Shown here: positions 5,955 through 58,700 of the stretch, piece after piece
Position numbering within the stretch: position 1 is the first letter of the stretch
How the letters are laid out: each line of letters begins with the position of its first letter
Source of the DNA: Mobula hypostoma
Taxonomy: Eukaryota
Direction of reading: 5' to 3'
Assembly (NCBI RefSeq): GCF_963921235.1
Contig: NC_086097.1
Location: 120,654,001-120,718,000, forward strand
DNA length: 64,000 nt
The notes under the pieces: generated by a model
The model's database searches: none
What the model was told of the DNA's origin: nothing
What the model saw: the letters and a program-made list of their open reading frames with translations, nothing else
Made by a program: the position numbers and the translations under genes

Positions 5955-8635
5955 TTCATAAAGGCCTTGATAGCATAGATATGGAGAGGATGTTTCCTAT
6001 AGTAGGGGAGCCTAGGACCAAAGGACACAGCCTCAGAATATGAGGGCATCCCTTTAGAACAGAGGAGAAAGAGAATTTCTTAGACATCATCTCCCTGCTG
6101 TGTGTCGAGGCGAAGATCTTCTTCAGTGCAGTTTCCAACCGGTTGTGCACCTACCTAGCAAAGAACACCTATATTGATACATCAGTCCAGAAGGGTGGCA
6201 TTTCAGGGATGCCGGGCTGTCTGGAGCACATCGGTGTGGTGACACAGCTCATCAGGGAGGCCAGAGAGAGCAAGGGTAACCTGTCAGTATTGTGGCTCAA
6301 CCTGGCAAATGCATATGGCTCCACTCCGCAGAAGCTGGTGCAGCTCACACTGATCAAATATCACGTCCCCAGCAGAATCAGAGACCTTATCGCTGATTAT
6401 TACAGCAACTTCAGGATGAGGGTCTCTTCAGGAGCAATTACATCAACCTGGCGGAGGTCGGCATCATCACAGGGTGCACTATCTCAGTGACACTGTTCTC
6501 CCTAGCCATGAACATGCTCACTAAGTCTGCTGAACCAGAGTGCAGAGGGCCCAGAATGAATTCCGCTCAACGGCAACCACCTATCAGGGCATTCATGGAT
6601 GACCTCACAGTCACCACAGAATCAGTCCCAGGCTGCCGGAGGATTCTGCAAGGGCTCGAAAAGCTGGTGGAGTGGGCCCAGATGCGTTTCAAATCAAATC
6701 AAGATCGATGGTGCTGAGGAAAGGGAAGGTGGAGAACAAGTTCCGGTTCAACATCGCAGGCACAGCCATCCCAACCATCACAGAAAAACCAGTCAAGAGC
6801 TTAGGCAAAGTTTTTGACAGCTCTTTAAGGGACACAACATCCATTCAGGCAACCTGCACCAAGTTGGATGGCTGGCTGAAATCTGTGGACAAATCTGGCC
6901 TACTTGGGAAGTTTAAAGCCTGGGTGTATCAGCATGGCATTCTTCCCAGAATCCTGTGGCCCCTCCTCGTCTATGGAGTTCCGATCTCGACAGTCGAAAC
7001 CTTAGAGAGGAGGGTTAGCAACCACCTCAGGAGATGGCTGGGGCTGCCAAAGAGCCTAAGCAGCATCGCACTCTATGGACACCACAACAAACTGCAACTG
7101 CCCTTCAAATCCTTGGACGAAGAATTCAAGGTAACAAGAACCAGAGAAGTGCTACAGTATAGAGACTCAAGTGACCCGAATGTGGCTAGAGCAGGGATCC
7201 AAGTAAGTACTGGCAGGAAGTGGAGGGCAGAGGAAGCTGTTCAGGAGGCAGAGGCGAGGCTGCGTCACAGGAGGCTGGTGGGAGTGGTCACACAGGCCGA
7301 GCTGGGCTAGGATCCTTTCCAACTCCCCAAATGGACACCAGAGGGAAGGAAAGGCGTCGTCTAGATCAGGAGAAGGTGAGAGCAGTAGTGGAGGAGATGA
7401 GAGCCTGCAAGGCGGTGGGAATGAAGCAACAGGGAGCTTGGACAAGATGGGAGAACGCGGTTGAGAGGAAAGTGACCTGGGCTGATCTTTGGAAAGCCGA
7501 ACCACACCGCATCCAATTTCTCATCCAGGCAGTGTACGATGTGCTTCCAAGCCCATCAAACCTGCACACATGGGGCAAGGCAGAGTCATCTGCGTGCCCA
7601 CTGTGCTCCAAGCGAGGAACCCTGGAGCACATCCTCAGCGGTTGTACAAGGGCACTTGGTGAGGGACAGTACAGATGGAGGCATGATCAGGTCCTGAAGA
7701 CCATCGCTGAAGCCGTCAGTGCAGGAGTTGAGTGGGCGAAGCGGTCCCGACCCTCCAAGCAGACCATTCCCTTTGTCAGAGCTGGGGAGCAGCCAATACC
7801 TGCCAAAAGGACATCTGCAGGCATTCTGACCTCTGCAAGGGACTGGCAGCTGTTGGTGGACCTCAAAGGGCAGCTGAAGTTCCCCAACCATATCGCAGCC
7901 ACCACCCTGCGACCAGACATTGTCCTAGTGTCTGAGTCTACTAAACAAGTGGTGCTGCTGGAGCTGACAGTCCCATGGGAAGATAGCTTGGATGAGGCCT
8001 TTGAAAGGAAGCTCTCCAAGTACGCAGGACTGGTCAGCAACTGTCAGCAGGCTGGATGGAGAGAGGTGTCTCCCAGTGGAGGCTGGGTGTAGGGGATTCA
8101 TAGCCCTTCTTTAGTTAGAGCCTTCAGTATTTTAGGCATCGAGGGAGAGAGGAAGAGGAGAGCCATCCGCAGTACAACCGATGCGGCAGAGAGGGCCTCA
8201 AGATGGCTGTGGCTCAAAAGAGGGGAGCCATGGAGTCATAAGTAGCTAGCCATCTGGACACAAGCTGGGGTCTGATCAGCCCCGGCTGGGTCACCTGGAG
8301 GAGGTTGTATGATGTTGAAAGACCCGAAACACCCGATGATTCCAGGAACATCACTGAAGATATGTCCAGAAGCATCAATAGATGTATGTACACAGCAGAC
8401 AGGGGTTGGTGAATCTGTGGAATCCATTGTGACAGATAGCTTGGTGAGGGGAAAGTCATTGGGTAGATGTAAATTGGAGGTTGATAGGATCTTGATTAGT
8501 AATAGTGTCAAACGGATAAGTAGAGTAGGCTGGAGAATGGGGTTGTAAGGGATGATAAATCAGCCTTGATGGAATGGCGGAGCAGACTTGATAAGCTGAA
8601 TGACCTAATTCTGTTCCTAAGTCTTATGATCTTCG
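5955..8635 (+). mobile_element. CR1 LINE 3' end (5955-6086 and 8397-8635), split by the HERO-like insertion
   Basis: CR1-type tail GGAGAGGATGTTTCC..CACAGCCTCAGAAT..AATTTCTTAGACA resumes as AGACAGGGGTTGGTGAATCTGTGGAAT and ends in CCTAATTCTGTTCCTAAGTCTTATG. Confidence 0.8.
6087..8396 (+). mobile_element. HERO-like (R2 group) non-LTR retrotransposon with restriction-like endonuclease; 5'-truncated, frameshifted
   Basis: RT motifs QKGGISGMPGCLEH, LWLNLANAYGS, AFMDDL; CCHC CPLCSKRGTLEHILSGC; RHDQVL; PD-(D/E)xK-type RPDIVL..ELTVPWE..RKLSKY; flanked by AGACA at 6082-6086 and 8397-8401. Confidence 0.9.
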
Positions 8636-9868
8636 TAAAAATTAGACTTAGAGTACCTGAAATATTGACTCCTGGTTTAGGATGCAAATCTTCTTTCTCT
8701 TCTGTTTTTGAGTGGGCTGTTTGACTTCTTTGCTGAGAGGTAGCCCTCGATTATTCCTGAAGCTCTTAAAAAGTTTTGCATGTCTTTGAGTTAAAGGAAA
8801 TTTTGCATCAAGCAAACTTTATAATTGAGCTGGAATCTGAAAGTACTGTACCTGCTACAACTGCATTTAAAATTCAAAAGGAATAGGACCTATTAAGTAT
8901 GTCTTTTCTTTTTATTACTCACATCAGAACCTTTGCTTGCTGATATTAATATGCTTCTTTAGCTGTCTTTAAACTGTCCAAGAGCACACTTCACTATTCT
9001 CTGAAGAAGTTATTTATATCAAAATGACTGTCGTGCTTATATTTTCTGCATTAAGAGCCGCAAAAGCTGACTTCTAAAATTTTAATTTTATTACTTTGCA
9101 TTGATGTATGATTTTTTTTTCATTTTCCCGCAACTCATTTTGTCTTCTAATTGCATATTTTTCTACAGAAGCAGAGACTTCGATGACCCTTTTTTATGAG
9201 TTCAAGTTCTGTTATTAAAGTAAAAGCCAAAGCAAAGCTACAGCAAGGATTTCATATGAAGAGCCCAAATGTGAGTTACTACTTGAGCTCTTGCTCTATT
9301 TACAATAAATCTTTTGGTAAAGGGAGTTTTTTATTGTTAGATAAAGGCTTGCATTTACACAATGCCTTAGTATGCCAATCATAAAACTTTGCTTTTACAG
9401 AATTAAATAGGGAAACGTAGGAGACATTTTTACTTTCAGTGAGATCCCAGTCAGAGCAGTGAGATGAATGTGATTGCTTTTTTTGGTTTTATGAGACATT
9501 TCTGTTCTAAGAATGATATACGTTGAAAAATTGAACATTGTGAATTTAGAGCGAAATCTTGAAGAACAAGTTGATGTCAACAATTGCTATCAAAACTAAC
9601 CATGGACTTCCCTCCTTGTGACATTGCTTCAGCCGGAATATGGCTTGTTCTAATGGAAAATCTTCCAGGGAGTTTTGTGTCAACAACACAGTTTGACCAG
9701 AATCAAGGAGAGATGAGCAAATGAGAAAAATGTGACAGAGAGGAACAAGAGGAGCAGCGGCTGGTAGCAATGGTGTGTTTGGGGAGGGACAGGGTGCTGA
9801 AGGAAGGTGATACAAAAGGCACTATGGTTAAGAAAGAAATTTATCACTAACTAACAGCACGTATAAGA

Positions 9869-9890
9869 GGGAAAGAAAGAGAGAGGAGAG

Positions 9891-9925
<35 letters not shown>
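9869..9925 (+). repeat. (GA)n microsatellite
   Basis: Directly visible GAGAGA run. Confidence 0.95.
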
Positions 9926-9928
<3 letters not shown>

Positions 9929-9984
9929 TGATTGCTTGAAAAGAGTGTTACATTGATCATTGTATATTTCAATATGATCATTTA

Positions 9985-10435
9985 TTCCACCTTCTCCTTT
10001 CTCCCTTTTTATATTCCCCTTCTACCTTTTCTACCTCTTCTCTTCTCACCTGGCCATCACCTCCCTCTGATGCACTTTCTATTTTCCTTTCTCTCATGGG
10101 CCACTCTCCTCTCCTATTAGATTTCTTCTTCTTCAGCCTTGTACTTCTTCCGCCTATCACCTCCCAGCTTCTCACTTCATCCCCCCCAACACACCATCCA
10201 TCTACCTCCCCCTCACCTGGTCTCGCCTATCACCTGCCAGCTTCTACTTCTTCCCCTCTACCTAACTTCTTATTCTGGCTTCTGCCTCCTTCCTTTCCAG
10301 TCCCGTTGAAGGGTCTCGGCCCAAGACATCAGTTGTTTGTTCCTTTCTATAGATGCTGCCTGGTCTGTTGAGTTCCTCCAGCATTGTGTATGTGTTGCTC
10401 TGGATTTCCAGCATCTACAGAATCTCTTGTGTTTA
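9985..10435 (+). mobile_element. Penelope-like pseudo-LTR, decayed, with degenerate hammerhead motif at ~10299-10335
   Basis: Pyrimidine-rich tract, then CAGTCCCGTTGAAGGGTCTCGGCCCAAGACATCAGTTG and GATGCTGCCTGG..GAGTTCCTCCAGCA..TTCCAGCATCT; similar to 43200-43585. Confidence 0.8.
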
Positions 10436-13107: not shown

Positions 13108-15535
13108 TGTTATGTTTTGTAACTTCTACAACATAAAAATTATCAAAAGGAAAAACACGAAGCCAAGTATCCACTTCGTTTTTACTTTTAGTGAGGTGCA
13201 CAGATATGATGTGCTGATATAGACGTATGCATTCAGGCTCTTCTACATATAACACGTAATGAATTATGTAAACAAACCAAGAATGCTGAATCAAACAATG
13301 TATTTACAATACTAATCAAATATTACTGATATGTTAAATATACAATATTCCTTCCTGCTTAGCTATAGACTCCTGCTCAATATAGAATGCATCTCAACTC
13401 AAATATGTAGCTTTCTTTCTTTTCAAATCTTTTTATTATTATTATTATCCAAAATTAACACGAGTACATCGAAGTAAGCAACACTTACACTGTCTCAAGA
13501 AAAAAGAACATTATTTTAAAGGTTGAAAAATTTTTGGTGATAATAGAAAAATCCCTACTAAGCAAGAAAAAGTGGGTAAAAAAAAACCCATTAAGTGTTC
13601 AACCCCGGAGCCAAGCGTCATACAAAAAGCTTCTAAAGATAAACATCAAACCGCCAGCGAGAAAAAAAATAAGTAACTTATTGCTCTCTAGACATCACAG
13701 TACGCTATATGGTACAACTACTATACAGACAAACTAATCTTAAATTGTCCCATATTCAGATATTCAGGTCTAAAGATTTAATCCCTGTGGAGGATTTCTT
13801 ACTTCCGGGACATCTTTCCTGACAAGACTGGATGGGGGGTAGGTTCACTGTGTGGAAGGTGAAACAATTTCAGGTCCTGGGCCTCTCCTGTGGTGCTTGT
13901 ACTGGTTGACTCTGGGATTGCAGGAAAAATGGTTTTGACAGCTCTGAACACCTCCCTTCTCTAACAATTGACTCTGCTCTCCTCAACTGATACATGTGTT
14001 GTCTCCAGCTGACATCAGATGCCATCTCCACTGTGTAGGCAAGTGGTTGAGTTCCGTCCATAACCTGTCCTAGTACCCACTTTTGATCACGTCTGTAGTC
14101 CCTCACTAGGACTACTTGCCCAGGAGTGAAACATCGAACATCCTTTTTTGAGGAGTCCTCACTTTGCCTCAGCTGTTAGTCCTGCGTACTCCTGTTGAGA
14201 CTGGGTTTGAGAAGATCCAAGACTGAGCATAAGAGATGACTCAGAAACAACATAGCTCATGAGTTGTTGGCTGCGGAATGTGTTGCATTGTGATATGCAA
14301 GAAGAAAATTGGTGAGCTTCTACATCAGTGACAGTGTAGTTCTGCTGACATTGCTTGCTGTGCATTCTTTAGACTTTGGACAAACCTTTCCACCAAGTCA
14401 TTTGTAGCTGAGTGGTATGGTGCGGGTGTAAGATTCCTTGTTCCATTCATTTTCAGGAACGACTGAAACTGTTCCACAACAAACTGTGGTCCACTGTCAC
14501 TGACGAAGTGTTCTGGGATACCAGTCTTGGAGTAGAGGCTTTTCAACCCATCAACCGTGTGTGGGGCTGTAGTAGAGGCTATTGGGAACATTTCTGGCCA
14601 CCTTGTAGCTGCATCCCCTGCTACCAAGATAATTGTGCCTATAAATGGTCCAGCAAAATCCACATGAATTCTCTGCCAGGGCAACGCTGTCCATTCCCGG
14701 GGATAGAAAGAAGCTTCTCTTGGCATCTTCTGGCCGTGTTGGCATCCTGAAGAATGCATGACAAGCTGCTCCATTTGCTGATCTATCCCAGGCCACCAGA
14801 CATAGCTTTGAGCGGGCACCTTCATTTTGGTTTCCTCTAGGTGACTGGAATGTAGCTCCTCCAATAATTTAGCTCTCAGCTTGGATGTTGCAACAGCTCT
14901 CAATCTCCACATAAGGCAACCAATGTCAAGGGCAAGGTCACCCCAGCGCTGGTAAAAATGGGGGAGCTGGAGTTTCTGCTGATCATTCGAGCCATTTGGA
15001 GTTTCCATGCAGAGCTGAGATAACGTGGGGTCTTTTCAATTTCCCTTTAGATTGCCTCTGCCATATTAGGGAGACTTTCAATTTGCATTAGGGTGAATGT
15101 GTCAAGAGTAGTGTTCTGTTTTGTAAATTTTTCAGGTATTTCTTTTTCCAGGGTAAATAGGCCAATCCATCAGTGATCCATGATTTGTTGTCCTCTTGAA
15201 TTCGATTTCGTCCTCCAAGACACAGAACCCTTTATGCTGCTGTAGTTAATGAAACTCCTTTTGTGGATTGAAAATGGACACTAGTGATGGATGGTCAGTA
15301 ATAAGGGGTAAACTCTTTTCATACAAGTACTGGTTGAAACATTTTACACCCCAATCCAGACTCAAGGCCGTTCTGTAAATCTGTGCATAATTTTTCTCTG
15401 CAGTGGCAAGGGAACATGATTCAAATGGGGCATTCGCTTCCATCACTGATAACTTGTGACATTATTGCACAGATACCATAAAGCAAGTCATTACTGGCAA
15501 GCTTCACTGAATGATGTGGATCATAATGTGTGAGT
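13108..15535 (-). mobile_element. Gypsy LTR retrotransposon copy A (3' LTR 13108-13347, integrase, RNase H remnants), decayed
   Basis: Integrase peptides LHSSHL..YVWWPGIDQ, PWQRIHVDFAGP, VSDSGPQF, PYHSATNDLVERFVQSLK; RNase H AEKNYAQI..LITDHPSL; purine tract on the minus strand next to the LTR; LTR matches 37948-38185. Confidence 0.85.
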
Positions 15536-15741
15536 TCTTTAAGCATTTTGGAAGCATTGATCATAGCTCCCTGACCTTTACCATGGTCATGGACAGGGAT
15601 AGGAGAAGACTGTAATTGGGAAGTATTTAATTGGGGGAAAGCAAATTATGATGCTATTAGTCAGGAAGTTGGGAGTGTAAATTGGAAACAGATGTACTCA
15701 GGGAAATGCACAAAGGAAATGTGGACGTTGTTTAGATAGCA

Positions 15742-15874
15742 AACAACAGGAATTCTGCAGATGCTGGAAATTCAAGCAACACACATCAAAGTTGCTGGTG
15801 AATGCAGCAGGCCAGGCAACATCTCTAGGAAGAGGTACAGTCGACGTTTCAGGCCGAAACCCTTCGTCAGGACT
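15742..15874 (-). mobile_element. 133-bp Penelope-derived mini-insertion (hammerhead plus pLTR 3' end) with 15-bp TSD
   Basis: GTTGTTTAGATAGCA at 15727-15741 and 15875-15889; the insert is nearly identical to 40645-40777. Confidence 0.92.
15839..15874 (-). ncRNA. Minimal type I hammerhead ribozyme motif
   Basis: Minus strand AGUC-CUGACGA-AGG GUUUCGG CCU-GAAA-C-GUC-GACU: intact CUGANGA/GAAA core, stems I and II, palindromic ACGU at stem III, GUC cleavage triplet. Confidence 0.8.
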
Positions 15875-16544
15875 GTTGTTTAGATAGCACTTGCATGGGG
15901 TTCTGGATAGATTTATCCTCTTGAGGAAAGGGAAGGATGGCAGGGTGAAGGACACACTGCCAGGGATGGTGATAGAGGCAGATACATTAGAGACATTAAG
16001 GAAACTCTTAGGTAGGCACACTGATGATAGAAAAATGGAAGCCTATGTAGGAGGGAAGAGTTGGATTGAACAGAGGAGGTTAAAAGGTCAATACAGCATT
16101 GTGGGCTGAAGTTCTAATGTCTTGTAATGTTATATTGCTCTGGGTTCTAAATCTCAGAACAAACTACCCAATTTTACTTTAGGAATGTCTTGACTTCGAG
16201 GAGTGTGGTTGTTGATCAAGATAGCTTACCAGTGGCTTTGCAAGAATATTATGGGTGGTCTTTCCAGCAACATGTAGAGCCTGAAACATAAATAAATTGT
16301 TCCCACGATGTTACCTACTTTGTTATGCCCCTTTATATTATTATTATTATTATTATTTTTCTTTTTTATTATTTTTCTTTTAATATAATCTCAGTGTGTA
16401 TTTGTGAATGTATAAATATATATAGATTTATACATACATAAAAAATGGAAAAGGTTTTATTTGTAAAAAAGTTTGCGTAATACTGGCGAATACCTTATCC
16501 AAATAAAAATCAAGTAAAAAAAAATGTTAAACTCCTGTAGTTAG

Positions 16545-16690
16545 TTGCCTTAGGGTCCTGTTGAAGGGTCTCAGGTCGAAATGTCAACTGCTTACTTTTT
16601 TCCAGAGATGATTGCCTAACCTGCTGAGTTCCTCCAGAATTCTGTGTGTGTTGCTTGGATTTCCAGCATCTGCAGATTTTCTCTTGTTTC
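16545..16690 (+). mobile_element. Penelope-like pLTR fragment with degenerate hammerhead
   Basis: GGTCCTGTTGAAGGGTCTCAGGTCGAAATGTCAAC..CCTGCTGAGTTCCTCCAG..TTTCCAGCATCTGCAG. Confidence 0.75.
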
Positions 16691-29424: not shown

Positions 29425-29550
29425 ACTGCTAATGTTGAGATCTGGAGCTAAGGCAAACAAAACTGCTGGAGGAACTCAACAGATCAGGTAGCATCTGTGG
29501 AGACAAAGGAATAGTCAACATTTCGGGTTGAGACCTTGCATTAGGACTGC
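29425..29550 (-). mobile_element. Penelope-like pLTR fragment with degenerate hammerhead
   Basis: Minus strand CAGTCCTAATGCAAGGTCTCAACCCGAAATGTTGACT..GATGCTACCTGATCTGTTGAGTTCCTCCAGCA. Confidence 0.7.
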
Positions 29551-31069: not shown

Positions 31070-31220
31070 GGCTTTATTTGTCACAGGTGAAGTATGTCAT
31101 TTGCATCAAATCAAATGAGCAAGGATTGTGCTGGGCAGCCACAAGTGTTGCCATGCTTCCAGAGCCAAGATAGCATGCCCACACCTCACTAACTCTAACC
31201 CATAAGTCTTTGGAATGTGT
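31070..31220 (-). mobile_element. V-SINE-like SINE, 3' part
   Basis: Reverse match to 28640-28800 and 44240-44400. Confidence 0.7.
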
Positions 31221-32554
31221 AGGGGAGGGCTGCAGTTCTGTCTTTAATCTTTCCAAGTACCCACTTTTGATCACCTCTGTAGTCCCTCACCAGGACTGCT
31301 TGTGCAGGAGTGAAACAGAACATTTTTGTTTTGAAGGGTCCTCAATTTGTCTCAGCTGTTTGTCCTGCATACTCCTTCTGAGGTTGGGTTTGAGGAGATC
31401 CAAGGGTGAGCATAAGTACCAACCCGGGAACTGCAGAAATGGTGAGTTGTTAGCTGTGGAGTTTGCTCCATTGTGATATGCAAGGAGAAAATTGGCACGC
31501 TTCCAATTCAGTGTTAGTGTAGAGTGTTCTGCTGATACTGCTGGCAGTGCATTCTTTAGACTCTGAACAAACTTTTCTACTAAGCCATTTGTAGCTGGAT
31601 GGTACAGTGCAAATGTAATATGTCTTATTCCATTCATTTTTAGGAATTATTGAAACTGTTCTGCAACAAACTGTGGTCTATTGTCACTGATTAAGTTCTC
31701 GAACATCAGCCCTTGAAAAGTAGATTCTCAAGACATCAACAATGAGTGAGCCTGTAGTGGAGGCTATTAGGAACACTTCTGGCTACTTTGTAGCTGCATC
31801 CACTACTACCAGGAAATTTGTGTCCATGAATGATCCAGCAAAATCCACATGAATCCTTGGCTAAGGCAATGCATGCCACTCTGCAAGATGGAGAGGCACT
31901 GTTCTTGGCATCTCCTGGATGTACTGACTTCCCAAACAGTGCATGGCCATCTGCTTGTTCTACTGATCTATTGCAGGCCACCAGACAAAGCTGTGAGCCA
32001 ATGCTTTCATTTTGACCACGCCTAGAAGGCCAGCATGTAGCTCCTGCAGCACTTTAGCTCTCAGTTTGGATGGTACAACAAATCTCAGTCCCCACATAAG
32101 GCAACCTCTGTCAAGGGCAAGTTCATCCCAGTGTTCTAAAAATTGGGAAACTGATATTTCTGTTGCACATTCCAGCCATTTTGGGTTGCCTTGTAGACCT
32201 GAGTCATTGTAGGGTCATGTCTGGTTTCCCTTTGGATCTTATCTGCCATACTAAGGAGACTTTCACATTGCATTAGGGAGAATACTTCAAAGGAATGTCC
32301 TCTTTTGTATATTTTTTGGATATTTTCTTTTCCAAGGTAAATTGGACAATCCATAACTATTTCCATGATTAATTCTCCTATTGAATTCGATCTTATAATT
32401 GTGTCATTCAAGAGAGAGAGCCCATCTCTGCATTTATGCTGCTGCTTCTGTGGTTTGAAAATGGTCAGTAGTGGTTGATGATTAGTAATGATGGTAAACT
32501 CTCTCTCATACAGGTACTGGTCGAAATGTTTTAAACCCTAAACCAGACTCAAGG

Positions 32555-35645: not shown

Positions 35646-38524
35646 TGTCATCCAGGTAACACTCTAAGTGTCTGGCAGCCTTGCAACACCTAGTCCATAG
35701 CTTCTGCCAGAGTTCAGGGGCAGATGCTACTCCAAAAATAAGCCTATTATAGTGGTAAAGTGCTTTGTGAATGTTTATGGTGAGAAACACTTTGGACTCT
35801 TCTTCCGTCTCCATCTGCAGGTAGGTCTCAACTTAAGTCCACTTTACTGGAGTGTTTTCTTCCAGAAATGATGCAAAGTATCCTCTGTCCTGCAAAGTGT
35901 TCATGATCTACTGAGTTGATGGTGACTTAAAATTACCACAGATTCTGACAGACAAATTTTTCTTGGCTACAGAGACCACAGGTCCACCCAACCTTGGAAA
36001 GAATTCCTTCAGCCTCTAAGCAATCTAGCTCACTAGCTGCTTTATCATAGATGGTATAAAGAACTGGATGGACTTTGTAAAACATGGATATAGCATTTCT
36101 TTTTAACTTTGATATATTTGAATTTTCCAGTGTATTCCTTGAACCCTGCTGTGGCATTATCCTGTACCTTCCTTAATTCACTTCCAGTTGACTCAACCAC
36201 AGAGGATCTGTCGTGCAAGTAGTTGATGGATCTCCAGTGAAGCGTAGTTGTCTCACCAATCATGGCTCCACAATGCTGGCCCTTCTGTTTTTATCACACT
36301 CGGGCCCAATGTTGCTTGTTGATTGTTGTTTTTCACTATTGTGAATGTCATTCCCAGATGAATTATCTTTTCTCCAGTATAAATTCTTAGCTGTGTATCT
36401 GCAGGCCTCAGCTCAGTATCTTTGAAATGTTGATCAAACTCATTTTGTGGAATGACTGAAACAGCTGAGCCAGTGCCCAGTTCCATTTCAATTAATTTGC
36501 TGTTCACTTCTGATGTAAGCCATATGGCTTGCCTCTTGTTAATTTTCACATTGTAAATCCCTCCTCACATAAAAAAAACAGCAAAGAAAAATGTAACAGG
36601 CACGTCAACCCACAAATCCCTCCACCCACACGAAAAATGAACAAAATAGAGCAGGTACATCAGCACCCCCAAATCCCCCTCTCTGCACAAAAAAAAGAGA
36701 AAAAAACTGGGTGAAAAACGTATAAAACACTATAAGACTGAGAAAAGTTTATAGTCCAAGTCCATATCCAAAATGAAGAAAACCTGGGTAACATTTTTGG
36801 GCACGACGACAGGCTCTCCCCTCTCTGGTATCAGAGCAATCAAAAAACAGGCAGTTGACGTCAACTTTTACATTCATCTCAATGTTTCCATCTCCCTATT
36901 GCTTTAATTGGTGAACAATGCAAGCTTTAATTAGTGCAATGATGTCAAATATCAGCTTCCTCCCCGTCCCGCAGTTTGCCCGCTGTTCGGTTCGCACACA
37001 CTATTCATTTGTTTTCATCTGCCCGACATGCTCTTTGTGTGTGTGTTCTAGTTTGTTACATTTGCTGCAAGTATTTCCTTTAAACCTGCATTGGTCTGGT
37101 GTATATGAGCCCCTGCTGCAAAGGTAACACAATTTGTTCATCCAGGTAGGTTTATGTTTAGGGATTACAATTTTGCTCATGCTCACTTTCTTTCCCGACA
37201 GCAAGTCAATTGCGCCTCTTTCTGCTGTATTCATTGATACAACAGTTTAAAATGCTCTTTTAAATATTAGTTGTTCATCCATTTGGAGCTGTTTTTAAAT
37301 GCTTTCTTGTAAGATACCACAAACTGAACATTCTCTCAGTGCATCATTAAGTCCATCACTGAACTGACAATGCTTAGACAAGTTCTTCCATGCAGCCACG
37401 TAAGCTAAAGTGGACTCTGCTTCCTTTTGATTCCACTTATAAAATCTAAAGCATTCTGCAATCAGTAATGACTTCAGTTCTAAATATCCCCTCGTTGCAT
37501 TCATTGTATCAGCAAAACTCATTTCAGCTGGTTTGGTTAGAGCAGTTAACCATCTAAGCAAACTCTCTACTATTCCTCCTATTGCACTCAGCAACACTTG
37601 GCACTCACTTATTATTGGCTATTTCATTCACTTCAAAATACTGCTCAAGTCATTCAGCATATATAATCCAGTTATCTGCTGCATAATCAAACCTATCTAT
37701 TTTTTCAATATACCCAGTTATTTCTGGTTCTTTTTATTTATTTATTTTATTATAACTTACTATTTATGAACCCATGAATTATTTTGATTTTCTGCCTTTT
37801 TTAAATTTGACCATCTCTCTCCCTTTCCGAAGAGACACATGTTGCAGTTTTATTAAACTCAGAAGTCTGTCTCTCTTGTGCAGAAAAAAAATAATGTTCT
37901 GCCTCAGAAGGTAGTCCATCAACATTTTAAAACTACCTCATTGTCACTGTTACATTTTGTAACTCCAAAACATAAAACTGATCAAAAGAAAAACATGGAA
38001 CCAAAGGTAACGAGTCTACTTCATTCTTCACTTAATGAAGTGCTCACAAATGATGTGATGGCATAATGGTGCATGTCATTCATGTACTTTTACTTATAAC
38101 CTGTAATAAATTATGTAAACAAAGAATGCTTAACTAAACAATATATGTAACATAATTACTCAAATATACTATTAAATACGCAACAATGGGGAGAAGGCAG
38201 ATGAATGCGGTGAGAGGGTTAGTAAATCAGCTAGGATGTAATGGTGGAGCAGACTCGATGGGCCAAATGGCTTAATTCTGTTCCTATGTCTTATGGTTTT
38301 ATTGTGGTCTTATGTTCAGAGGAAGAATGTACAAATTCCTTAAAGACACTAGTTTTAGAGAGAAAAATTCTGGTAAGCGTTTTTTAGTATTTAACGGCAC
38401 ATCACTTTAACTCTTTTCTACATTGTAAAACTGCCCAAACCTTGTGGTGAATTCATGAATAAAACCCAGTCTCGTACATTGTCAGGCTTAACAATGCCGA
38501 TTTGAAAACACATCATTAGAGGAT

Positions 38525-38700
38525 GTCAGGCAGCATCTATGGAGAGAAATGAACAGTTGACATTTCAAGCTGAGACCTTTCATCTTGTCCAAAACGTTGA
38601 CTGTTCATTCCTCTCCATAGGTGATGCACGATCTGTCGAGTTCCTCCAGCAATTTATGTATCTGGATTTCCAGCATCTGCAGAATCTCTTGTGTTTTTTT
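38525..38700. mobile_element. Palindromic Penelope pLTR remnant (two pLTR ends in inverted orientation)
   Basis: GCATCTATGGAGAGAAATGAACAGTTGACATTT pairs with AAACGTTGACTGTTCATTCCTCTCCATAGGTGATGC. Confidence 0.75.
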
Positions 38701-39740: not shown

Positions 39741-40741
39741 AATTTGCAAATTTGAATTTCAACTGTGTTAATTACACCAATAAAGGAGAAATTAAATGGA
39801 CCTTATGCCATTAGTAAGAACAAAGAAAAATTGTTATGCATTTTATATGGTATCAGTTAAACAGTAAAAGGGTTTGGTGTGAATTTGCGTTTTTAAGCAT
39901 AAATTCAGCTGCCACTGCGAGTTACTGGTTGAAACAGAGATCAATTCCTCAAATAGGAACAATGTGGTGGTTGATTGAACAACCATCAACATTTGAGTGG
40001 AAGGGACAGCCTGTTAAAGGAAACTCCAGTGCTAAGGGAGCAAAGGATATGTAGAGGGACACATGGAGAAGAAGATAAAGTGGTGCAAGGTCACAGAGGA
40101 ATTTGAAGATGAGAACAAATTGTTAAAAGCAACTCAATGGGACACAAAAAGGCAGAAATGACAGAAGAGGGTCAGACTAATAGCGCAACAAGATGAAACC
40201 TGGCTTTTAACTTAGCGTTTACTTGATTCTGAGTCATACAATTATAATCTGTCAGATCAGGTAAGCTAACATTAGCTTTATTTGTCATATGTACATTGAA
40301 ACATACAGTGAAATACATCACTTGCATCAAATCAAATCAACCAGTGTTCATGTGGGAACAGGAATGTTAATGTAAGTGGAAGGTTTTAATCTTAGTAATC
40401 TGACAAAGCAATTGAAAATGAAAAAAACTACAAAAACTGGAAATATGAAATAAGACGAAAAAAATGCTGGAAACACTCAACAAGTCAAATAACATCTGTG
40501 CCATAAGAGCTGTTAATGTGTCAGGTCTAGGACCCTTCTTCCAAACCAGGAAAGAAAATAACTCAGGGAGGGTGGAATGCAGAGAATACCTCTGAGAGCG
40601 TGAGACTGGATGATCTAACAGGGCACTCAACATAATTCAAAGCAAACAACAGGAATTCTGCAGATGCTGGAAATTCAAGCAACATACATCAAAGTTGCTG
40701 GTGAACGCAGCAGGCCAAGCAGCATCTCTAGGAAGAGGTAC

Positions 40742-40777
40742 AGTCGATGTTTCAGGCCGAGACCCTTCGTCAGGACT
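40742..40777 (-). ncRNA. Minimal hammerhead ribozyme motif in pLTR
   Basis: Minus strand AGUC-CUGACGA-AGGGUCUCGGCCU-GAAA-C-AUC-GACU; core intact, AUC triplet, stem III palindrome broken. Confidence 0.7.
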
Positions 40778-41075
40778 AACTGAAGGAAGAGTGAGTAAGG
40801 GATTTGAAAGTAGGAGGGGGAGGGGGAGATCCAAAATGATAGGAGAAGACAGGAGGGGGAGGGATAGAGCCGAGAGCTGGACAGGTGATAGGCAAAAGGG
40901 GATATGAGAGGATCATGGGACAGGAGGTCCGGGAAGAAAGACAAGGAGGTGGGGGGTGACCCAGAGGATGGGCAAGAGGTATATTCAGAGGGACAGAGGG
41001 AGAAAAAGGAGAGTGAGAGAAAGAATGTGTGCATAAAACTGAGTAACAGATGGGGTACGAGGGGGAGGTGGGGCA

Positions 41076-42642
41076 TTAGCGGAAGTTAGAGAAGTCGATG
41101 TTCATGCCATCAGGTTGGAGGCTACCCAGACGGAATATAAGGTGTTGTTCCTCCAACCTGAGTGTGGCTTCATCTTTACAGTAGAGGAGGCCGTGGATAG
41201 ACATGTCAGAATGGGAATGGGATGCGGAATTAAAATATGTGGCCACTGGGAGATCCTGCTTTCTCTGGCGGACAGAGCGTAGATGTTCAGCAAAGCGGTC
41301 TCCCAGTCTGCGTCGGGTCTCACCAATATATAAAAGGCCACATCGGGAGCACCGGACGCAGTATATCACCCCAGTCGACTCACAGGTGTGGTGATGCCTC
41401 ACCTGGAAGGACTGTTTGGGACCCTGAATGGTGGTAAGGGAGGAAGTGTAAGGGCATGTGTAGCACTTGTTCCGCTTACACAGATAAGTGCCAGGAGGGA
41501 GATCAGTGGGGAGGGATGGGGGGGACGAATGGACAAGGGAGTCGCGTAGGGAGCGATCCCTGCGGAATGCAGAGAGAAGGGAGGAGGGAAAGATGTGCTT
41601 AGTGGTGGGATCCCGTTGGAGGTGGCGGAAGTTACGGAGAATAATATGTTGGACCCGGAGGCTGGTGGGGTGGTAGGTGAGGACCAGGGGAACCCTATTC
41701 CTAGTGGGGTGGTGGGAGGATGGAGTGAGAGCAGATGTACGTGAAATGGGGGAGATGCGTATAAGAGCAGAGTTGATAGCGGAGGAAGGGAAGCCCCTTT
41801 CTTTAATAAAGGAAGACATCTCCCTCGTCCTAGAATGAAGAGCCTCATCCTGAGAGCAGATGCGGCGGAGATGGAGGAATTGCGAGAAGGGGATGGCGTT
41901 TTTGCAAGAGACAGGGTGAGAAGAGGAATAGTCCAGATAGCTGTGAGAGTCAGTAGGCTTATAGCAGACATCAGTGGATAAGCTGTCTCCAGAGACAGAG
42001 ACAGAAAGATCTAGAAAGGGGAGGGAGGTGTCGGAAATGGACCAGGTAAACTTGAGGGCAGGGTGAAAGTTGGAGGCAAAGTTTATAAAGTCAACGAGTT
42101 CTGCATGCGTGCAGGAAGCAGCGCCAATGCAGTCGTCGATGTAGCGAAGGAAAAGTAGGGGACAGATACCAGAATAGGCACGGAACATAGATTGTTCCAC
42201 AAACCCAACAAAAAGGCAGGCATAGCTAGGACCCATACGGGTGCCCATAGCTACACCTTTAGTTTGGAGGAAGTGGGAGGAGCCAAAGGAGAAATTATTA
42301 AGAGTAAGGACTAATTCCACTAGACGGAGCAGAGTGGTGGTAGAGGGGAACTGATTAGGTCTGGAATCCAAAAAGAAGCGTAGAGCTTTGAGACCTTCCT
42401 GATGGGGGATGGAAGTATATAAGGACTGGACATCCGTGGTGAAAATAAAGCGGTGGGGGCCAGAGAACTTAAAATCATCGAAAAGTTTAAGAGCGTGAGA
42501 AGTGTCACAAACATAGGTCGGAAGGGATTGAACAAGGGGTGATAAAACAGTGTCGAGGTATGCAGAAATGAGTTCGGTGGGGCAGGAGCAAGCTGAGACA
42601 ATAGGTCGGCCAGGACAGGCAGGTTTGTGGATCTTGGGTAGG
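41076..42642 (-). CDS. PLE reverse transcriptase and GIY-YIG endonuclease; N-terminally truncated but stop-free
   Basis: LPKIHKP..GRPIVS, DVQSLYTSIP, QTKGVAMGTRMGPSYA, LRYIDD, LPFLDL, CKRNKCYTC, VIYCVRCSRCGLLYIGET, EEQHLIFRLGSLQPDGMN. Confidence 0.9.
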
Positions 42643-43489
42643 ATTGGGGCCCTGAATGGTGGTAAGAGAGGAAGTGTAAGAGCATGTGTAGCACTTGTTC
42701 GGTAAGGGAGGAAGTGTAAGGCGCTTCCTACATGACTCCCTTGTCCATTCTTCCCCCCCATCCCTCCCCACTGATCTCCCTCCTGGCACTTATCCTTGTA
42801 AGTGGAACAAGTGCTACACATGCCCTTACACGTCCTCCCTTACCACCATTCAGGGCCCCAGACAGTCCTTCCGGGTAAGGCGACACTTCACCTGTGCGTC
42901 GGCTGGGGTGATATACTGCGTCCGGTGCTCCCGATGTGGCCTTCTATATATTAGCAAGACCCAACGCAGACTGGGAGTCCATTTTGCTGAACACCTACAC
43001 TCTGTCCGCCAGAGAAAGCAGGATCTCCCAGTGGCCACACATTTTAATTCCACATCCCATTCCCATTCTGACATGTCTACCCACGGCCTCCTCTACTCTA
43101 AAGATGAAGCCACACTCAGTTTGGAGGAACAACACCTTATATTCCGTCTGGGTAGCCTCCAACCTGATGGCATGAACATTAACTAACTTCTGCTAATGCC
43201 CCACGTCCCCCTTGTACCCCATCCGTTATTTATTTATATACACACATTCTTTCTCTCTCTCCTTTTTCTCCCTCTGTCCCTCTCACTATACCCCTTGCCC
43301 ATCCTCTGGGTTCTCCCCCACCCTTGTCTTTCTCCCTGGGCCTCCTGCCCCATGATCCTCTCATATCCCTTTTGCCAATCAACTGTCCAGCTCTTGGCTC
43401 CATCCCTCGCCCTCCTGTCTTCTCCTATCATTTTGGATCTCCCCCTCCCCCTCCAACTTTCAAGTCTCTTACTAGCTCTTCCTTCAGTT

Positions 43490-43525
43490 AGTCCTGACGA
43501 AAGGTCTCGGCCCGAAACGTCGACT
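43490..43525 (+). ncRNA. Minimal hammerhead ribozyme motif in the inverted pLTR
   Basis: AGUC-CUGACGA-AAGGUCUCGGCCC-GAAA-C-GUC-GACU; core and ACGU palindrome intact, stem II weakened. Confidence 0.7.
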
Positions 43526-43585
43526 GTACCTCTTCCTACAGATGCTGCCTGCCCTGCTGCGTTCACCAGCAACTTTGATGTGTGT

Positions 43586-43892
43586 TCCACAAACTATGGA
43601 CTCACTTTCAAGGACTCTACAATTCATGTTCTCAATATTCATTCATTCATTCATTCATTCATTCATTTATTTATTTATTTTTGTTATTTTGTTATTTTTT
43701 CTTCATTGTTTTTGCACAAATTATTGTCCTTTGCACGTTGGTTCTTTGTCTTTCTTTGCACTCAGTTTTTCATTGATTCTATTATGTATCTTCATATTTA
43801 CTGTGAATGTCCTCAAGGAAAGGAATTTCAGGGTAGTATATGGTAATATATGCATACTTTGATAATAAATTTACTTTCAACATTGAACTTTG
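43586..43892 (+). mobile_element. Rex1/Babar 3' UTR containing (ATTC)n
   Basis: CTATGGACTCACTTTCAAGGACTC..GATAATAAATTTACTTTCAAC; similar to 18780-19250. Confidence 0.7.
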
Positions 43893-55275: not shown

Positions 55276-55799
55276 CTACTCAGAAAAAAGTAATCATAGG
55301 AAAAACTTACTGAACTGGAAATCAGCCAGTATGTAGACCTCAGACAGTGATTCTGACAGTTATGTTATAGGGTATTCCTTCTGAAAACTCTCCTTGGCAG
55401 GCATGTGAAAGCCATACATCTTTGACAAACATTATCTTTCTCCTTTTGAGACATGTATCTGGCATTTGCTCACAATTTTAAGCTGCATATCTTTTGTTTC
55501 TCTTGTTTGTTTGCTGCTTACAGACACAAAACAGATAAGCAGAGAGCGCACTTGAAAATTACAGAATTACTAATTACTGATGTCACAAGCTTCACTAATG
55601 GTGATTTATCATCTGGCAACATTCCCAAAAATAAAATGATGTTACAGGAAAAGAAATCAGTGGTTTCTGTAAATAAGAAAATAGGAACAGCTGACAGGGT
55701 AGAAACAAACATAAATTAGCATTCAGCTGCCAGTCTCCTACAGGATAATATCCAATGAAATAATTTGCAAAGTAATCATTATTTAGTTCTAACCACAAT

Positions 55800-58700
55800 T
55801 TCTTTCTTATTTTGCCCATTATGTCCCTGGCCTTTAGGACAGCAATGAAGGTCCTCCATGGTTCGGGAGGGTTTAAACTAATTTGCAAGGGGGATGGAAC
55901 CTGGAGTGATAGAGCAGTGAAAGAAGTGCATGGAGGAAAACCAGATCTAACATATAGAGAGGCTTTGAGGAAAGAGAAGCAGAATAAAGGGTGTAAAGGT
56001 AGTAAGGTAGAAGGGCTAAAGTGCATGTACTTCAATGTAAGAAGCTTCAGGATCAAAGGTGATGAACTGAGAGCTCGGATAGATACCTGGAAGTATGATG
56101 TAGTGGCCATTACAGAGACTTGGCTGGCACCAAAGCAGGAATGGATTCTCAGTATTCCTGGATTTCAGTGCTTTAAAATGGATAGAAAGGAGGGAAAAAG
56201 GGGAAGAGGGGTGGCATTACTGGTCAGGGATACTATTACAGCTACAGAAAGGGTGGGTAATGTAGCAGGATCCTCTTTTGAGTCAGTATGGGTGGAAGTT
56301 AGGAACAGTAAGGGAGCAGTTACTCTATTGGGAGTATTCTATAGGCCCCCTGGTAGCAGCAGAGATACAGAGGAGCAGATTGGGAGGCAGATTTTGGAAA
56401 GGTGCAAAAATAATAGGGTTGTTATCATGGGTGACGTTAACTTCCCTAATATTGATTGGCACCTGATTACTTCCAACGGTTTAGACAGGATAGAGTTTGT
56501 TAAGTGTGTCCAGGACGGATCCTGTCACAGTATGTTGACAGTCCAACTGGGGGATGCCATACTAGATCTAGTATTAGGTAACGAATCGGGTCAGGTCATA
56601 GATCTCTCAGTGGATGAGCATCTGGGGGATAGTGACCACTGCTCCCTGGCCTTTAGCATTATCATGGAAAAGGATACAATCAGAGAGGACAGGAAAATTT
56701 TTAATTGGGAAGGGCAAATTATGAGACTATAAGGCTAGAACTTGCGGGTGTGAATTGGGATGATGTTTTTGCAGGGAAATGTACAATGGATATGTGGTCG
56801 ATGTTTAGAGATTTCTTGCAGGATGTTAGGGATAAATTTGTCCCGGTGAGAAAGATAAAGAATGGTAGGGTGAAGGAACCATGGGTGATAAGTGAGGTGG
56901 AAAATCTAGTCAGGTGGAAGAAGGCAGCATGCATGAGGTTTAGGAAGCAAGGATCAGATGGGTCTATTGAGGAATATAGGATAGCAAGAAAGGAGCTTAA
57001 GAAGGGGCTGAGAAGAGCAAGAAGGGGGCATGAGAAGGCCTTGGTGAGTAGGGTAAAGGAAAACCCCAAGGCATTCTTCAATTATGCGAAGAACAAAAGG
57101 ATGTCAGGAGTGAAGGTAGGACCGATTAGAGATAAAGGTGGGAAGATGTGCCTGGAGGCTGTGGAAGTGAATGATGTGGAAGTGGAAATTCCTCAATGAA
57201 TACTTCTCTTCCGTATTCACCAATGAGAGGGAACTTGATGACGGTGAGGACAATATGAGTGAGGTTGATGTTCTGGAGCATGTTGATATTAAGGGAGAGG
57301 AGGTGTTGGAGTTATTAAAATACATTAGGATGGATAAATCCCCGGGGTCGGATGGAATATTCCCCAGGCTGCGCCACGAGGCAAGGGAAAAGATTGCTGA
57401 GCCTCTGGCTAGGATCTTTATGTCCTCGTTGTCTACAGGAATGGTACTGCAGGATTGGATGTGAATGTTGTCCCCTTGTTCAAAAAAGGTAGTAGATGTA
57501 GTCCGGGTAATTACAGACCAGTGAGTCTTACATCTGTGGTGGGAAAGCCGTTGGAAAAGATTCTTAGAGATAGGATCTATGGGCATTTAGAGAATCATGG
57601 TCTGATCAGGGACTGTCAGCATGGCTTTGTGAAGGGCAGATCGTGTCTAACAAGCCTGATAGAGTTCTTTCAGGAGGTGACCAGGCATGTAGATGAGGGC
57701 AGTGCAGTGGATGTGATCTACATGGATTTTAGTAAGGCATTTGACAAGGTTCCACACGGTAGGCTTATTCAGAAAGTCAGAAGGCATGGGATCCAGGGAA
57801 GTTTGGCCAGGTGGATTCAGAATTGGCTTGCTTGCAGAAGGCAGAGGGTCATGGTGGAGGGAGTACATTCAGATTGGAGGATTGTGACTAGTGGTGTCCT
57901 ACAAGGATCGGTTCTGGGACCTCTACTTTTCGTGATTTTTATTGACAACCTGGATGTGGGGGTAGAAGAGTAGGTTGGCAAGTTTGCAGATGACACAATG
58001 GTTAGTGGTGTTGTAGATAGTGTAGGGGATTGTCAAAGATTGCAGAGAGACATTGATAGGATGCAGAAGTGGGCTGAGAAGTGGCAGATGGAGTTCAACC
58101 CGGAGAGGTGAGAGATGGTACACTTTGGAAGGACAAATTCCAAGGCAGAGTACAAAGTAAATGGCAGGATACTTGGTAGTGTGGAGGAGCAGAGGGATCT
58201 GAGGGTACATGTCCACAGATCCTTAAAAGAAGCCTCACAGGTAGATAGGGTAGATAAGAAAGCTTATGGGGTGTTAGCTTTCATAAGTCGAGGGAAAGAG
58301 TTTCAGAGTCATGGGGTAATGATGCAGCTCTATAAAACTCTCGTTAGGCCACACTTGGAGTACTGTGTCCAGTTCTGGTTGCCTCACTATAGGAAGGATG
58401 TGGAAGCAATGGAAAGGGTACAGAGGAGATTTACCAAGATGCTGCCTGGTTTAGAGAGTATGGATTATGATCAGAGATTAAGGGAGTTATGGCTTTACTC
58501 TTTGGAGAGGAGGAGGATGAGAGGAGACATGATAGAAGTATACAAGATATTAAGAGGAATAGATAGAGTGAATAACAAGTGCCTCTTCCCTAGGGCACCA
58601 CTGCTCAATACAAGAAGACATGGCTTTAAGGTAAGGGGTGGGAAATTCAAGCAGGATATTAGAGAAAGGTTTTTCACTCAGAGAGTGGTTAGTGCGTGGA

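What the first reader, a model, noticed from the sequence alone, without database searches (positions are those of the whole stretch)
15727..15889. 133-bp hammerhead-headed mini-retroelement with a perfect 15-bp TSD
Seen: the insert 15742-15874 is flanked by GTTGTTTAGATAGCA on both sides. On the minus strand it starts exactly at stem I of an intact minimal hammerhead (AGUC CUGACGA...GAAAC GUC GACU) and runs to the same 3' end as the PLE at 40641. AGCA is shared by the TSD and the element end at 40641, suggesting microhomology-assisted priming. Known: PLE hammerheads with a palindromic ACGU stem III are proposed to cleave as dimers, and non-autonomous ribozyme-containing retroelements exist. 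Inference: either an independently mobilised ribozyme-SINE using the PLE RT/GIY-YIG in trans, or RT stalling at the ribozyme fold. The 5' end lies upstream of the GUC site, so the template was not cleaved there.
Basis: partly seen in the sequence, partly recalled or inferred. Interest (0 to 1): 0.72.

Follow-up and report, generated by a model that had tools for sequence, protein, structure and literature searches.

The report
Penelope mini-copy starting at ribozyme edge
A 133-base scrap of a Penelope-like jumping gene, flanked by a perfect 15-base target duplication, begins on the first base of the element's hammerhead ribozyme motif, likely because the element's RNA starts there and was copied to its end, so it is probably a dead-end copy and not a new self-spreading ribozyme element.

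Summary
Observation confirmed: 15742-15874 is the last 133 bp of a Penelope-like element (PLE; 95.6% identical to 40641-40777). It sits in an old CR1-type LINE with a true 15-bp TSD and starts at stem I of a minimal hammerhead. The start point recurs: 2 of 8 other insertions in the window begin there. In contigs of two public runs, 322 and 284 leave the element exactly there, against a mean of about 5 per place. A sister family makes up part of that peak. No whole genome was available. The first base fits an initiator +1 and lies in a 3'-splice-site-like context. Best reading (0.5): PLE RT starts inside the RNA and runs off a 5' end at the hammerhead edge, giving uncleaved dead-end mini-copies. 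A separate ribozyme-SINE is unlikely (0.12): no diagnostic SNPs were seen, and in a related PLE the RNA needed for priming lies beyond the copied part. RT stalling at the fold predicts the other side of stem I. Against my reading: this junction has chance-unlikely microhomologies. Solo PLE hammerheads are in print; the scan noted this 5' clustering before in other windows of this genome.

The parts
15727..15741 (+). TSD copy at the element's 3' end; its last 4 nt (AGCA) are complementary to the element RNA's 3' end
15742..15874 (-). 133-bp PLE terminal fragment: hammerhead motif plus 97-nt downstream part including the optional tail
   Evidence: 95.6% to 40641-40777 over 137 bp incl. AGCA; 6 differences, 3 of them the family majority
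15839..15874 (-). minimal type-I hammerhead motif; stem I AGUC/GACU, core CUGACGA and GAAA, stem II with G10.1.U11.1 wobble, ACGU palindrome, predicted cut between 15843 and 15842
   Evidence: sequence; folds; alignment of 7 window copies
15742..15777 (-). about 36-40-nt 3' tail that is present here and at 40641 but missing from the inverted arm ending at 43586
   Evidence: BLAST ends; optional 30-40-bp tail described in PMC8557442
15875..15889 (+). TSD copy at the element's 5' end; on the minus strand its last 7 nt are complementary to the element RNA's last 20 nt, and the insert's first AG extends the match to 9 nt
   Evidence: 7 nt or more at 0.16% of 120,350 window sites
15558..15960 (+). 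host target: decayed CR1-type LINE ORF2 fragment interrupted by the insertion
   Evidence: 72% over 249 bp to 56633-56877 after removing the insert; Exo_endo_phos hit on the ORF at 55776
40641..42641 (-). 5'-truncated copy of the parent PLE family: 521-codon open stretch (RT, CKRNKCYTC linker, GIY-YIG), about 300-nt pyrimidine-rich region, hammerhead, tail
   Evidence: (RVT_1 9.8e-6 and GIY-YIG 5.3e-4, both under Pfam's cut-offs)
40771..40800 (-). context of the 5' boundary in the parent: branch-point-like TACTCAC (TACTAAC in 43-45% of family depth), pyrimidine tract, CAG, then TTAGTCC whose A (40777) fits initiator +1
   Evidence: consensus motifs recalled
42722..43586 (+). inverted arm of the same compound PLE insertion, with hammerhead but without the tail
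   Evidence: 90.7% over 875 bp to 40681-41555
16555..16689 (+). older-family short copy that also begins at hammerhead stem I, upstream DNA not PLE-like
   Evidence: pyrimidine share upstream 0.43
29426..29548 (-). older-family short copy that also begins at hammerhead stem I
   Evidence: pyrimidine share upstream 0.55

Best explanation
The insert is the last 133 bases of a Penelope-like element, placed in an old LINE with a 15-bp target duplication and an uncut hammerhead motif at its start, and it is likely a dead-end run-off copy: the element's RT would start inside the RNA at the tail of the upstream pLTR and copy to an RNA 5' end predicted to lie at the first base of stem I. Shown: the TSD, the PLE origin, the shared 3' end, the uncut motif, and a pile-up of contig ends at this base. 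Inferred: (1) the GIY-YIG domain nicks both strands 15 bp apart; (2) the bottom-strand end AGCA pairs with the RNA's UGCU and primes cDNA; (3) a full-length pLTR-ORF-pLTR transcript offers two internal RT start sites, and use of the upstream one yields only about 133 nt; (4) the RNA end is most likely a Pol II start (initiator +1 on the A of AGUC), with a splice-defined boundary as the close alternative, because the same bases also look like a 3' splice site; (5) the copy lacks upstream promoter context and the downstream RNA needed for priming, so it would not move again. Ribozyme cleavage plays no part in making this copy.
For: Contigs of runs X2 and X5 laid on 40578-41777: 322 and 284 leave the element at 40777, the largest of the 6 loose-end rows shown per run, with long (median 109 and 71 nt) and mixed (agreement 0.41 and 0.40) continuations. 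The mean is about 5 partly-laid contigs per place and side (11,148 and 12,297 over 2,274). Summed depth drops 2.0x and 3.1x at 40777/40778, the largest of 26 bin-to-bin steps in both runs. In the window, 2 of 8 other insertions start within about 2 nt of AGTC (P 0.007-0.057 for a 300-100-nt span). The first stem-I A fits YYANWYY in 5 of 6 copies that keep upstream sequence, across diverged families; base rate 3.9% per A. One X5 joint (40777 back to 40667, depth 310) is a head-to-tail unit starting at this base with one extra G in sense, as a copied cap would leave (one event). In vitro, an anole PLE starts RT 111-118 nt into the ORF, copies to the RNA's 5' end, needs RNA to +172, and uses uncleaved RNA (PMC11167929). 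PLE transcription starts inside the upstream pLTR (PMC6765202; PMC2377424).
Against: The majority letters of the 40777 loose ends are the upstream region of a sister family like the copy at 10297, so part of the peak is not truncation; my 20-35% estimate rests on assumed agreement values. The tool hid 2,745 loose-end rows, left some uncounted and showed no 3'-end rows, so neighbouring places could not be compared. Bin depth varies up to about 4x along the element and reaches 79-84% of the terminal level at 41098-41137. The 5' junction of this copy has two microhomologies: AG extends a 7-nt target-to-RNA match, and the target continues GTCC (1.2% by chance), so the true end may be TCC, 2 nt later. 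No RNA 5'-end data were seen. In D. virilis the start site lies 46 bp upstream of a 75-bp intron whose end, not the start site, maps to helix I. Four of the seven initiator positions are stem I and core bases. The in vitro data come from the Poseidon clade, not this one. Half or more of window copies keep upstream sequence.
Confidence: 0.5

Rival explanations
1. Ordinary 5' truncation: cDNA was captured early by microhomology with the second nicked strand and happened to end at stem I; the apparent peak is mostly sister families that share the hammerhead but not the upstream region.
For: PLE copies are usually 5'-truncated (PMC8557442) and 5' junctions by microhomology are described (PMC3846280). 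The target's top-strand end matches the RNA end over 7 nt, 9 with the insert's AG, and the target continues GTCC. The loose-end majority letters are a sister family's. In-window counts are small (2 of 8).
Against: Agreement of only 0.40-0.41 and long continuations at 40777 imply mostly unrelated flanks. The family-specific bin 40698-40737, which sister families leave at 40740, is still 2.0-2.3x deeper than the bins upstream of the hammerhead. Depth does not decline across the terminal 133 nt. Two older families show the same start.
Confidence: 0.25
2. Structure-driven termination: once RT has copied stem I, the cDNA end GACT folds back on its own AGTC, or RT leaves the template at the hairpin that pairs the upstream pyrimidines with the core, ending synthesis at the outer edge on an RNA that continues upstream.
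For: The end coincides with the stem I edge. Self-priming at palindromes is proposed for PLE inverted junctions (PMC3846280). The copy at 38524-38696 has both arms starting inside the hammerhead. In the parent, AGUC lies in the loop of a predicted hairpin.
Against: Stem I is 4 bp with pairing probability near 0 in the parent context, and the cDNA region folds at only -4.0 kcal/mol without stem I. A plain stall would fall on the 3' side of the fold. It does not explain conserved YYAGTY.
Confidence: 0.13
3. A separate non-autonomous family (ribozyme-SINE or retrozyme monomer) with its own master copies, mobilised in trans by the PLE protein.
For: Uniform size and ends; one head-to-tail joint starting at 40777 in X5; non-autonomous PLE derivatives exist (MRC1, PMC8557442; tandem retrozymes and their monomers, bioRxiv 10.64898/2026.07.22.740005).
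Against: The copy matches the family majority at 3 of its 6 differences from 40641 and its other 3 changes are not among the 40 listed variants (175 hidden). It is single, not tandem. A retrozyme monomer from double cleavage would start at the cut, 32 nt downstream. No Pol III promoter was looked for or obvious. The copied part lacks the RNA needed for priming in the tested PLE.
Confidence: 0.12

Closest known systems
Solo minimal hammerheads of truncated metazoan PLEs (Cervera and De la Pena 2014, PMC4209133; parts 1-2 of 4 read)
   Same: Type-I minimal motif with 4-bp helix I, unpaired base before helix II and palindromic helix III positions; thousands of single motifs thought to be truncated PLEs; intron end mapping to helix I in D. 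virilis.
   Different: The parts read do not report clustering of 5' ends at the helix I edge, TSD-flanked mini-copies or cartilaginous fishes. This copy has G.U at 10.1-11.1.
Poseidon element of Anolis (PAc), internal RT initiation (Frangieh et al. 2024, PMC11167929; parts 1-2 of 4 read, supplement text searched)
   Same: Internal RT start defining the 3' end and optional tail; both strands cut and extended; uncleaved RNA is the substrate.
   Different: Different clade (no linker zinc finger). PAc primes without homology in vitro, whereas this junction shows 4-nt and 7-nt complementarity. No genomic run-off class is described in the parts read.
Canonical EN+ PLEs of the Neptune/Nematis type (Craig et al. 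2021, PMC8557442; passages read)
   Same: C-terminal GIY-YIG, CX2-5CxxC linker, 5' truncation, inverted arm, optional 30-40-bp tail, hammerhead near the 3' end.
   Different: No (TA)n target here; a preferred 5' end at the hammerhead edge is not mentioned in the passages read.
Non-LTR retrozymes (Cervera and de la Pena 2020, PMC7229834, passages; Li et al. 2026 bioRxiv 10.64898/2026.07.22.740005, parts 1-3 of 5)
   Same: Short, non-coding, type-I hammerhead, related to PLE pLTRs; dispersed monomers known; found in one chondrichthyan.
   Different: Defined by tandem units with two or more hammerheads and circular RNA; this is a single unit with a minimal motif that keeps the 5' side of the cut site.

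Membership tests
EN+ Penelope-like element, Neptune/Nematis type | single ORF with RT and C-terminal GIY-YIG in the parent family | tested here: met
   RVT_1 and GIY-YIG hits, both below Pfam cut-offs; YIDD and GVIY...YIG motifs; 1,979 homologues, best named ones from rays and sharks
EN+ Penelope-like element, Neptune/Nematis type | CX2-5CxxC zinc-finger linker between RT and EN | tested here: met
   CKRNKCYTC at residue 388; definition
EN+ Penelope-like element, Neptune/Nematis type | placement in the Neptune clade by RT phylogeny | not tested
   no tree with reference PLEs was built; Neptune versus Nematis is not resolved by the linker
EN+ Penelope-like element, Neptune/Nematis type | 5' truncation, inverted arm, optional 30-40-bp tail | tested here: met
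   40641-43586 compound copy; arm lacks the last 36-40 nt
Minimal type-I hammerhead of PLEs | core CUGANGA, GAAA, NUH with helices I and II and palindromic 15.2-16.2 | tested here: met
   sequence and descriptor scan; helices recovered in an alignment of 7 copies, with compensatory changes only in an off-pathway core helix
Minimal type-I hammerhead of PLEs | conserved G10.1-C11.1 pair | tested here: not met
   G.U in this copy; G-C in 35-40% of family depth and at 43490
Minimal type-I hammerhead of PLEs | self-cleavage (as dimer or protein-assisted) | not testable with these tools
   needs an in vitro assay; predicted catalytic fold is 4-7 kcal/mol above the MFE
Non-LTR retrozyme | tandem repeat with two or more hammerhead-bearing units | tested here: not met
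   single unit; no such array among 20 TRF rows; one head-to-tail joint elsewhere in X5
Non-LTR retrozyme | abundant linear and circular monomer RNA | not tested
   no raw RNA reads of a holder were offered
Independent SINE-like family | shared diagnostic SNPs separating short from long copies | tested here: inconclusive
   3 copy-specific changes not among 40 listed variants, 175 rows hidden; contigs do not phase SNPs with 5' ends
Independent SINE-like family | fixed 5' end with TSDs | tested here: inconclusive
   peak at 40777 but confounded; TSD clear only for this copy, weak for 16555 and 29548 (score 7, reached by 22 of 300 random sites)

The most novel reading that the evidence does not exclude
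Vertebrate PLE transcripts begin, or are spliced, exactly at the first base of the hammerhead, and PLE RT makes a strong-stop-like run-off cDNA from the upstream pLTR that is integrated by itself in huge numbers, with both nicked target strands pairing to the RNA's start region. The mini-copies would then be a genomic record of the element's RNA 5' end and of the intermediate that builds pLTRs, tandems and inverted arms.
Probability: 0.3. Interest if true: 0.65.

Novelty: new variant of a known kind. Interest (0 to 1): 0.4.

Why it matters
How PLEs build their pLTRs and what their hammerheads do are open questions (PMC8557442; PMC11167929). A very abundant young family whose short copies start at one base gives a direct handle: the exact start base, any extra G and the junction homologies across thousands of copies can separate a transcription start, a splice boundary and a structure-driven stop. 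As a single insertion it is ordinary, and it gives no evidence that the ribozyme cleaves.

Tried and rejected
No whole genome is held, so no census of copies was possible. Rfam at gathering score: 0 matches. Exact-pattern scans for related DNA: 0 loci in viral contigs, 0 and then 9 in metagenome contigs, 4 in prokaryote genomes; all 13 match only over the pattern or a few bases more (E 0.019-0.15) and were dropped as chance. Raw-read runs X21 and X22 laid 0 reads, so they are no test. A two-sequence MAFFT alignment of target and LINE failed and was redone pairwise. Protein searches with the translated motif: frame 1 gave 3 ray gene models, of which 1 (P0121) has a junction that fits splicing at CAG|TTAG, 1 includes upstream bases and 1 starts inside the motif; frame 2 gave none. 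These are predicted models, so I give them little weight. No joint from a donor at 41402 or 41383 to the hammerhead is among the 15 joints shown (712 hidden). A two-strand fold of the 42-nt motif gave -34.9 versus 2 x -15.0 kcal/mol but not a catalytic dimer fold. Three weak profile hits (E 0.028-0.65) were left out of the window count. Cleavage-defined 5' end rejected: the insert keeps 32 nt upstream of the cut. PMC7561263 passages held nothing relevant. Lunse et al. (PMC5785218) is not held; only its title was seen.

Full report
Observation. The two 15-mers at 15727-15741 and 15875-15889 are identical, maximal and unique in the window, and enclose 133 bp. With the insert and one copy removed, the site aligns without gaps over 168 bp to a second CR1-type LINE near 56.7 kb; keeping both copies forces a 15-nt gap. 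The duplication was therefore made on insertion. The insert plus AGCA is 95.6% identical to 40641-40777. On the minus strand it starts with stem I of a minimal type-I hammerhead whose core and ACGU palindrome are intact. The 10.1-11.1 pair is G.U, a common family variant, and the catalytic fold is predicted 4.0-7.3 kcal/mol above the minimum. Rfam does not score it.

Parent element. [quoted passage not shown] This is the standard layout of an EN+ PLE of the Neptune/Nematis type with its optional tail (PMC8557442, passages). The best named protein matches come from rays and sharks, up to 92% for Mobula. No tree was built. The finding's copy differs from the 40641 copy at 6 of 137 positions; at 3 it carries the family majority (72-96% of depth), and the other 3 are not among the 40 variants listed, with 175 hidden. 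It is a young member of the autonomous family.

Do 5' ends cluster? No genome was held. In the window a profile finds 14 hits; 11 have E at most 0.002 (10 of them built the profile) and form 9 insertions, while a reversed window gives one hit at E 0.76. Of the 8 insertions besides this one, 2 (16555, 29548) start within about 2 nt of AGTC with non-PLE DNA upstream, 1 (38524-38696) has both arms starting inside the motif, 3 keep upstream PLE-like sequence and 2 are unclear and counted as misses. P is 0.007-0.057 depending on the span assumed. Contigs of runs X2 (organism A) and X5 (organism B) were laid on 40578-41777; runs X21 and X22 laid nothing. At 40777, 322 and 284 contigs leave the element, with long and mixed continuations, against about 5 per place and side on average. 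Summed depth falls 2.0x and 3.1x there, the largest of 26 steps. Against this: the majority letters of those loose ends belong to a sister family like the copy at 10297, which I put at 20-35% under assumed values; 2,745 loose-end rows were hidden; some were not counted; depth is uneven elsewhere. X2 may be the sample behind the window. I rate a real preference at about 70%.

Why there? RT reads the RNA 3' to 5' and meets the 3' strand of stem I first, so a stall at the fold would end near 15840 (inference). Cleavage is excluded, since 32 nt upstream of the cut were copied. The boundary itself carries two signals (consensus motifs recalled). The A of AGTC fits initiator +1 (YYANWYY) in 5 of 6 copies that keep upstream sequence, against 3.9% of window A's, though 14 such sites lie in 760 nt of the parent. 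It also sits at a 3'-splice-site-like motif: by a crude score of my own, CAG|TTAG beats all but 0.24% of 8,931 AGs, the 10297 copy all but 0.07%, the 61127 copy 4%, and 43-45% of family depth has a perfect TACTAAC. In D. virilis an intron ends at helix I and the start site lies 46 bp before that intron (PMC4209133; PMC2377424), which favours the splice reading there. One X5 joint runs head to tail from 40667 into 40777 with an extra G in sense, and 1 of 3 ray gene models fits splicing at CAG|TTAG. Both are single, weak observations.

Mechanism. An anole PLE cuts both strands, starts RT 111-118 nt into the ORF, copies to the RNA's 5' end, needs RNA up to +172, and does not need hammerhead cleavage (PMC11167929). 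PLE transcription starts in the upstream pLTR (PMC6765202). A transcript that begins at the hammerhead edge therefore has an RT start about 133 nt from its 5' end, and using it gives this product. Such a copy lacks the downstream RNA and would be dead on arrival. These steps are inferred from another clade; confidence 0.5.

Junction detail. The bottom-strand TSD end pairs with the RNA end over 4 nt (0.5% of sites). The top-strand end pairs with the RNA's last 20 nt over 7 nt (0.16%), and the insert's first AG extends this to 9 nt; the target also continues GTCC (1.2%). These tests were made after seeing the sequence. They suggest pairing at both nicks, and they mean that the AG may come from brief top-strand priming, so this copy's true 5' end could be TCC. 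This supports the truncation rival (0.25) for this locus. Structure-driven termination gets 0.13 and a separate family 0.12.

What is known. Single minimal hammerheads from truncated PLEs (PMC4209133, parts 1-2 of 4), non-autonomous PLE derivatives and retrozyme monomers derived from pLTRs (bioRxiv 10.64898/2026.07.22.740005, parts 1-3 of 5, supplements not seen; PMC7229834, passages) are in print. Eight library searches showed no paper on a preferred 5' end at the hammerhead edge or on run-off copies; the library lacks most subscription papers and Repbase. Earlier notes of this scan report the same clustering in other windows of this genome; they are unchecked and are not counted as evidence. 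My first reading, given before seeing them, was already close to theirs.

Verdict. A correct observation of a young, short PLE insertion. It belongs to a known class, with one feature not found in print here, the preferred start at the hammerhead edge, which is probable but not proven with these data. It is not shown to be a new mobile ribozyme element. Interest 0.40.

Noticed in passing
window 38524-38696: Tiny inverted PLE insertion: both arms begin inside the hammerhead; possible 11-bp TSD with one mismatch (score 9, reached by 2 of 300 random sites).
   Followed up: partly
window 42641-42721: The junction between the two arms of the compound PLE holds a 57-bp and a 21-bp duplication of element sequence, a sign of template switching.
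   Followed up: no
window 40667-40777 (run X5): Head-to-tail joint of an about 112-bp unit starting at the hammerhead edge, one extra base between, depth 310; could seed a retrozyme-like array.
   Followed up: no
window 41383-41402, minus strand: Two strong splice-donor-like sites at the start of the GIY-YIG region, about 610-625 nt upstream of the acceptor-like site.
   Followed up: partly
window 15742-15874, minus strand: The whole 133 nt are open in one frame (44 codons), and ray gene models carry this peptide inside host proteins; others absorb the PLE ORF.
   Followed up: partly
window 6044-8092: Broken RT-like ORFs with a zf-RVT hit and a nuclease-like C-terminus, resembling an R2/NeSL-type non-LTR element (label recalled).
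   Followed up: no
window 14032-15367 and 31216-32554: Two decayed LTR-retrotransposon integrase fragments, 76% identical.
   Followed up: no
window 9866-10434: Older sister-family PLE copy with about 330 nt of upstream region next to an (AG)n run; its upstream letters match the majority loose end at 40777.
   Followed up: partly
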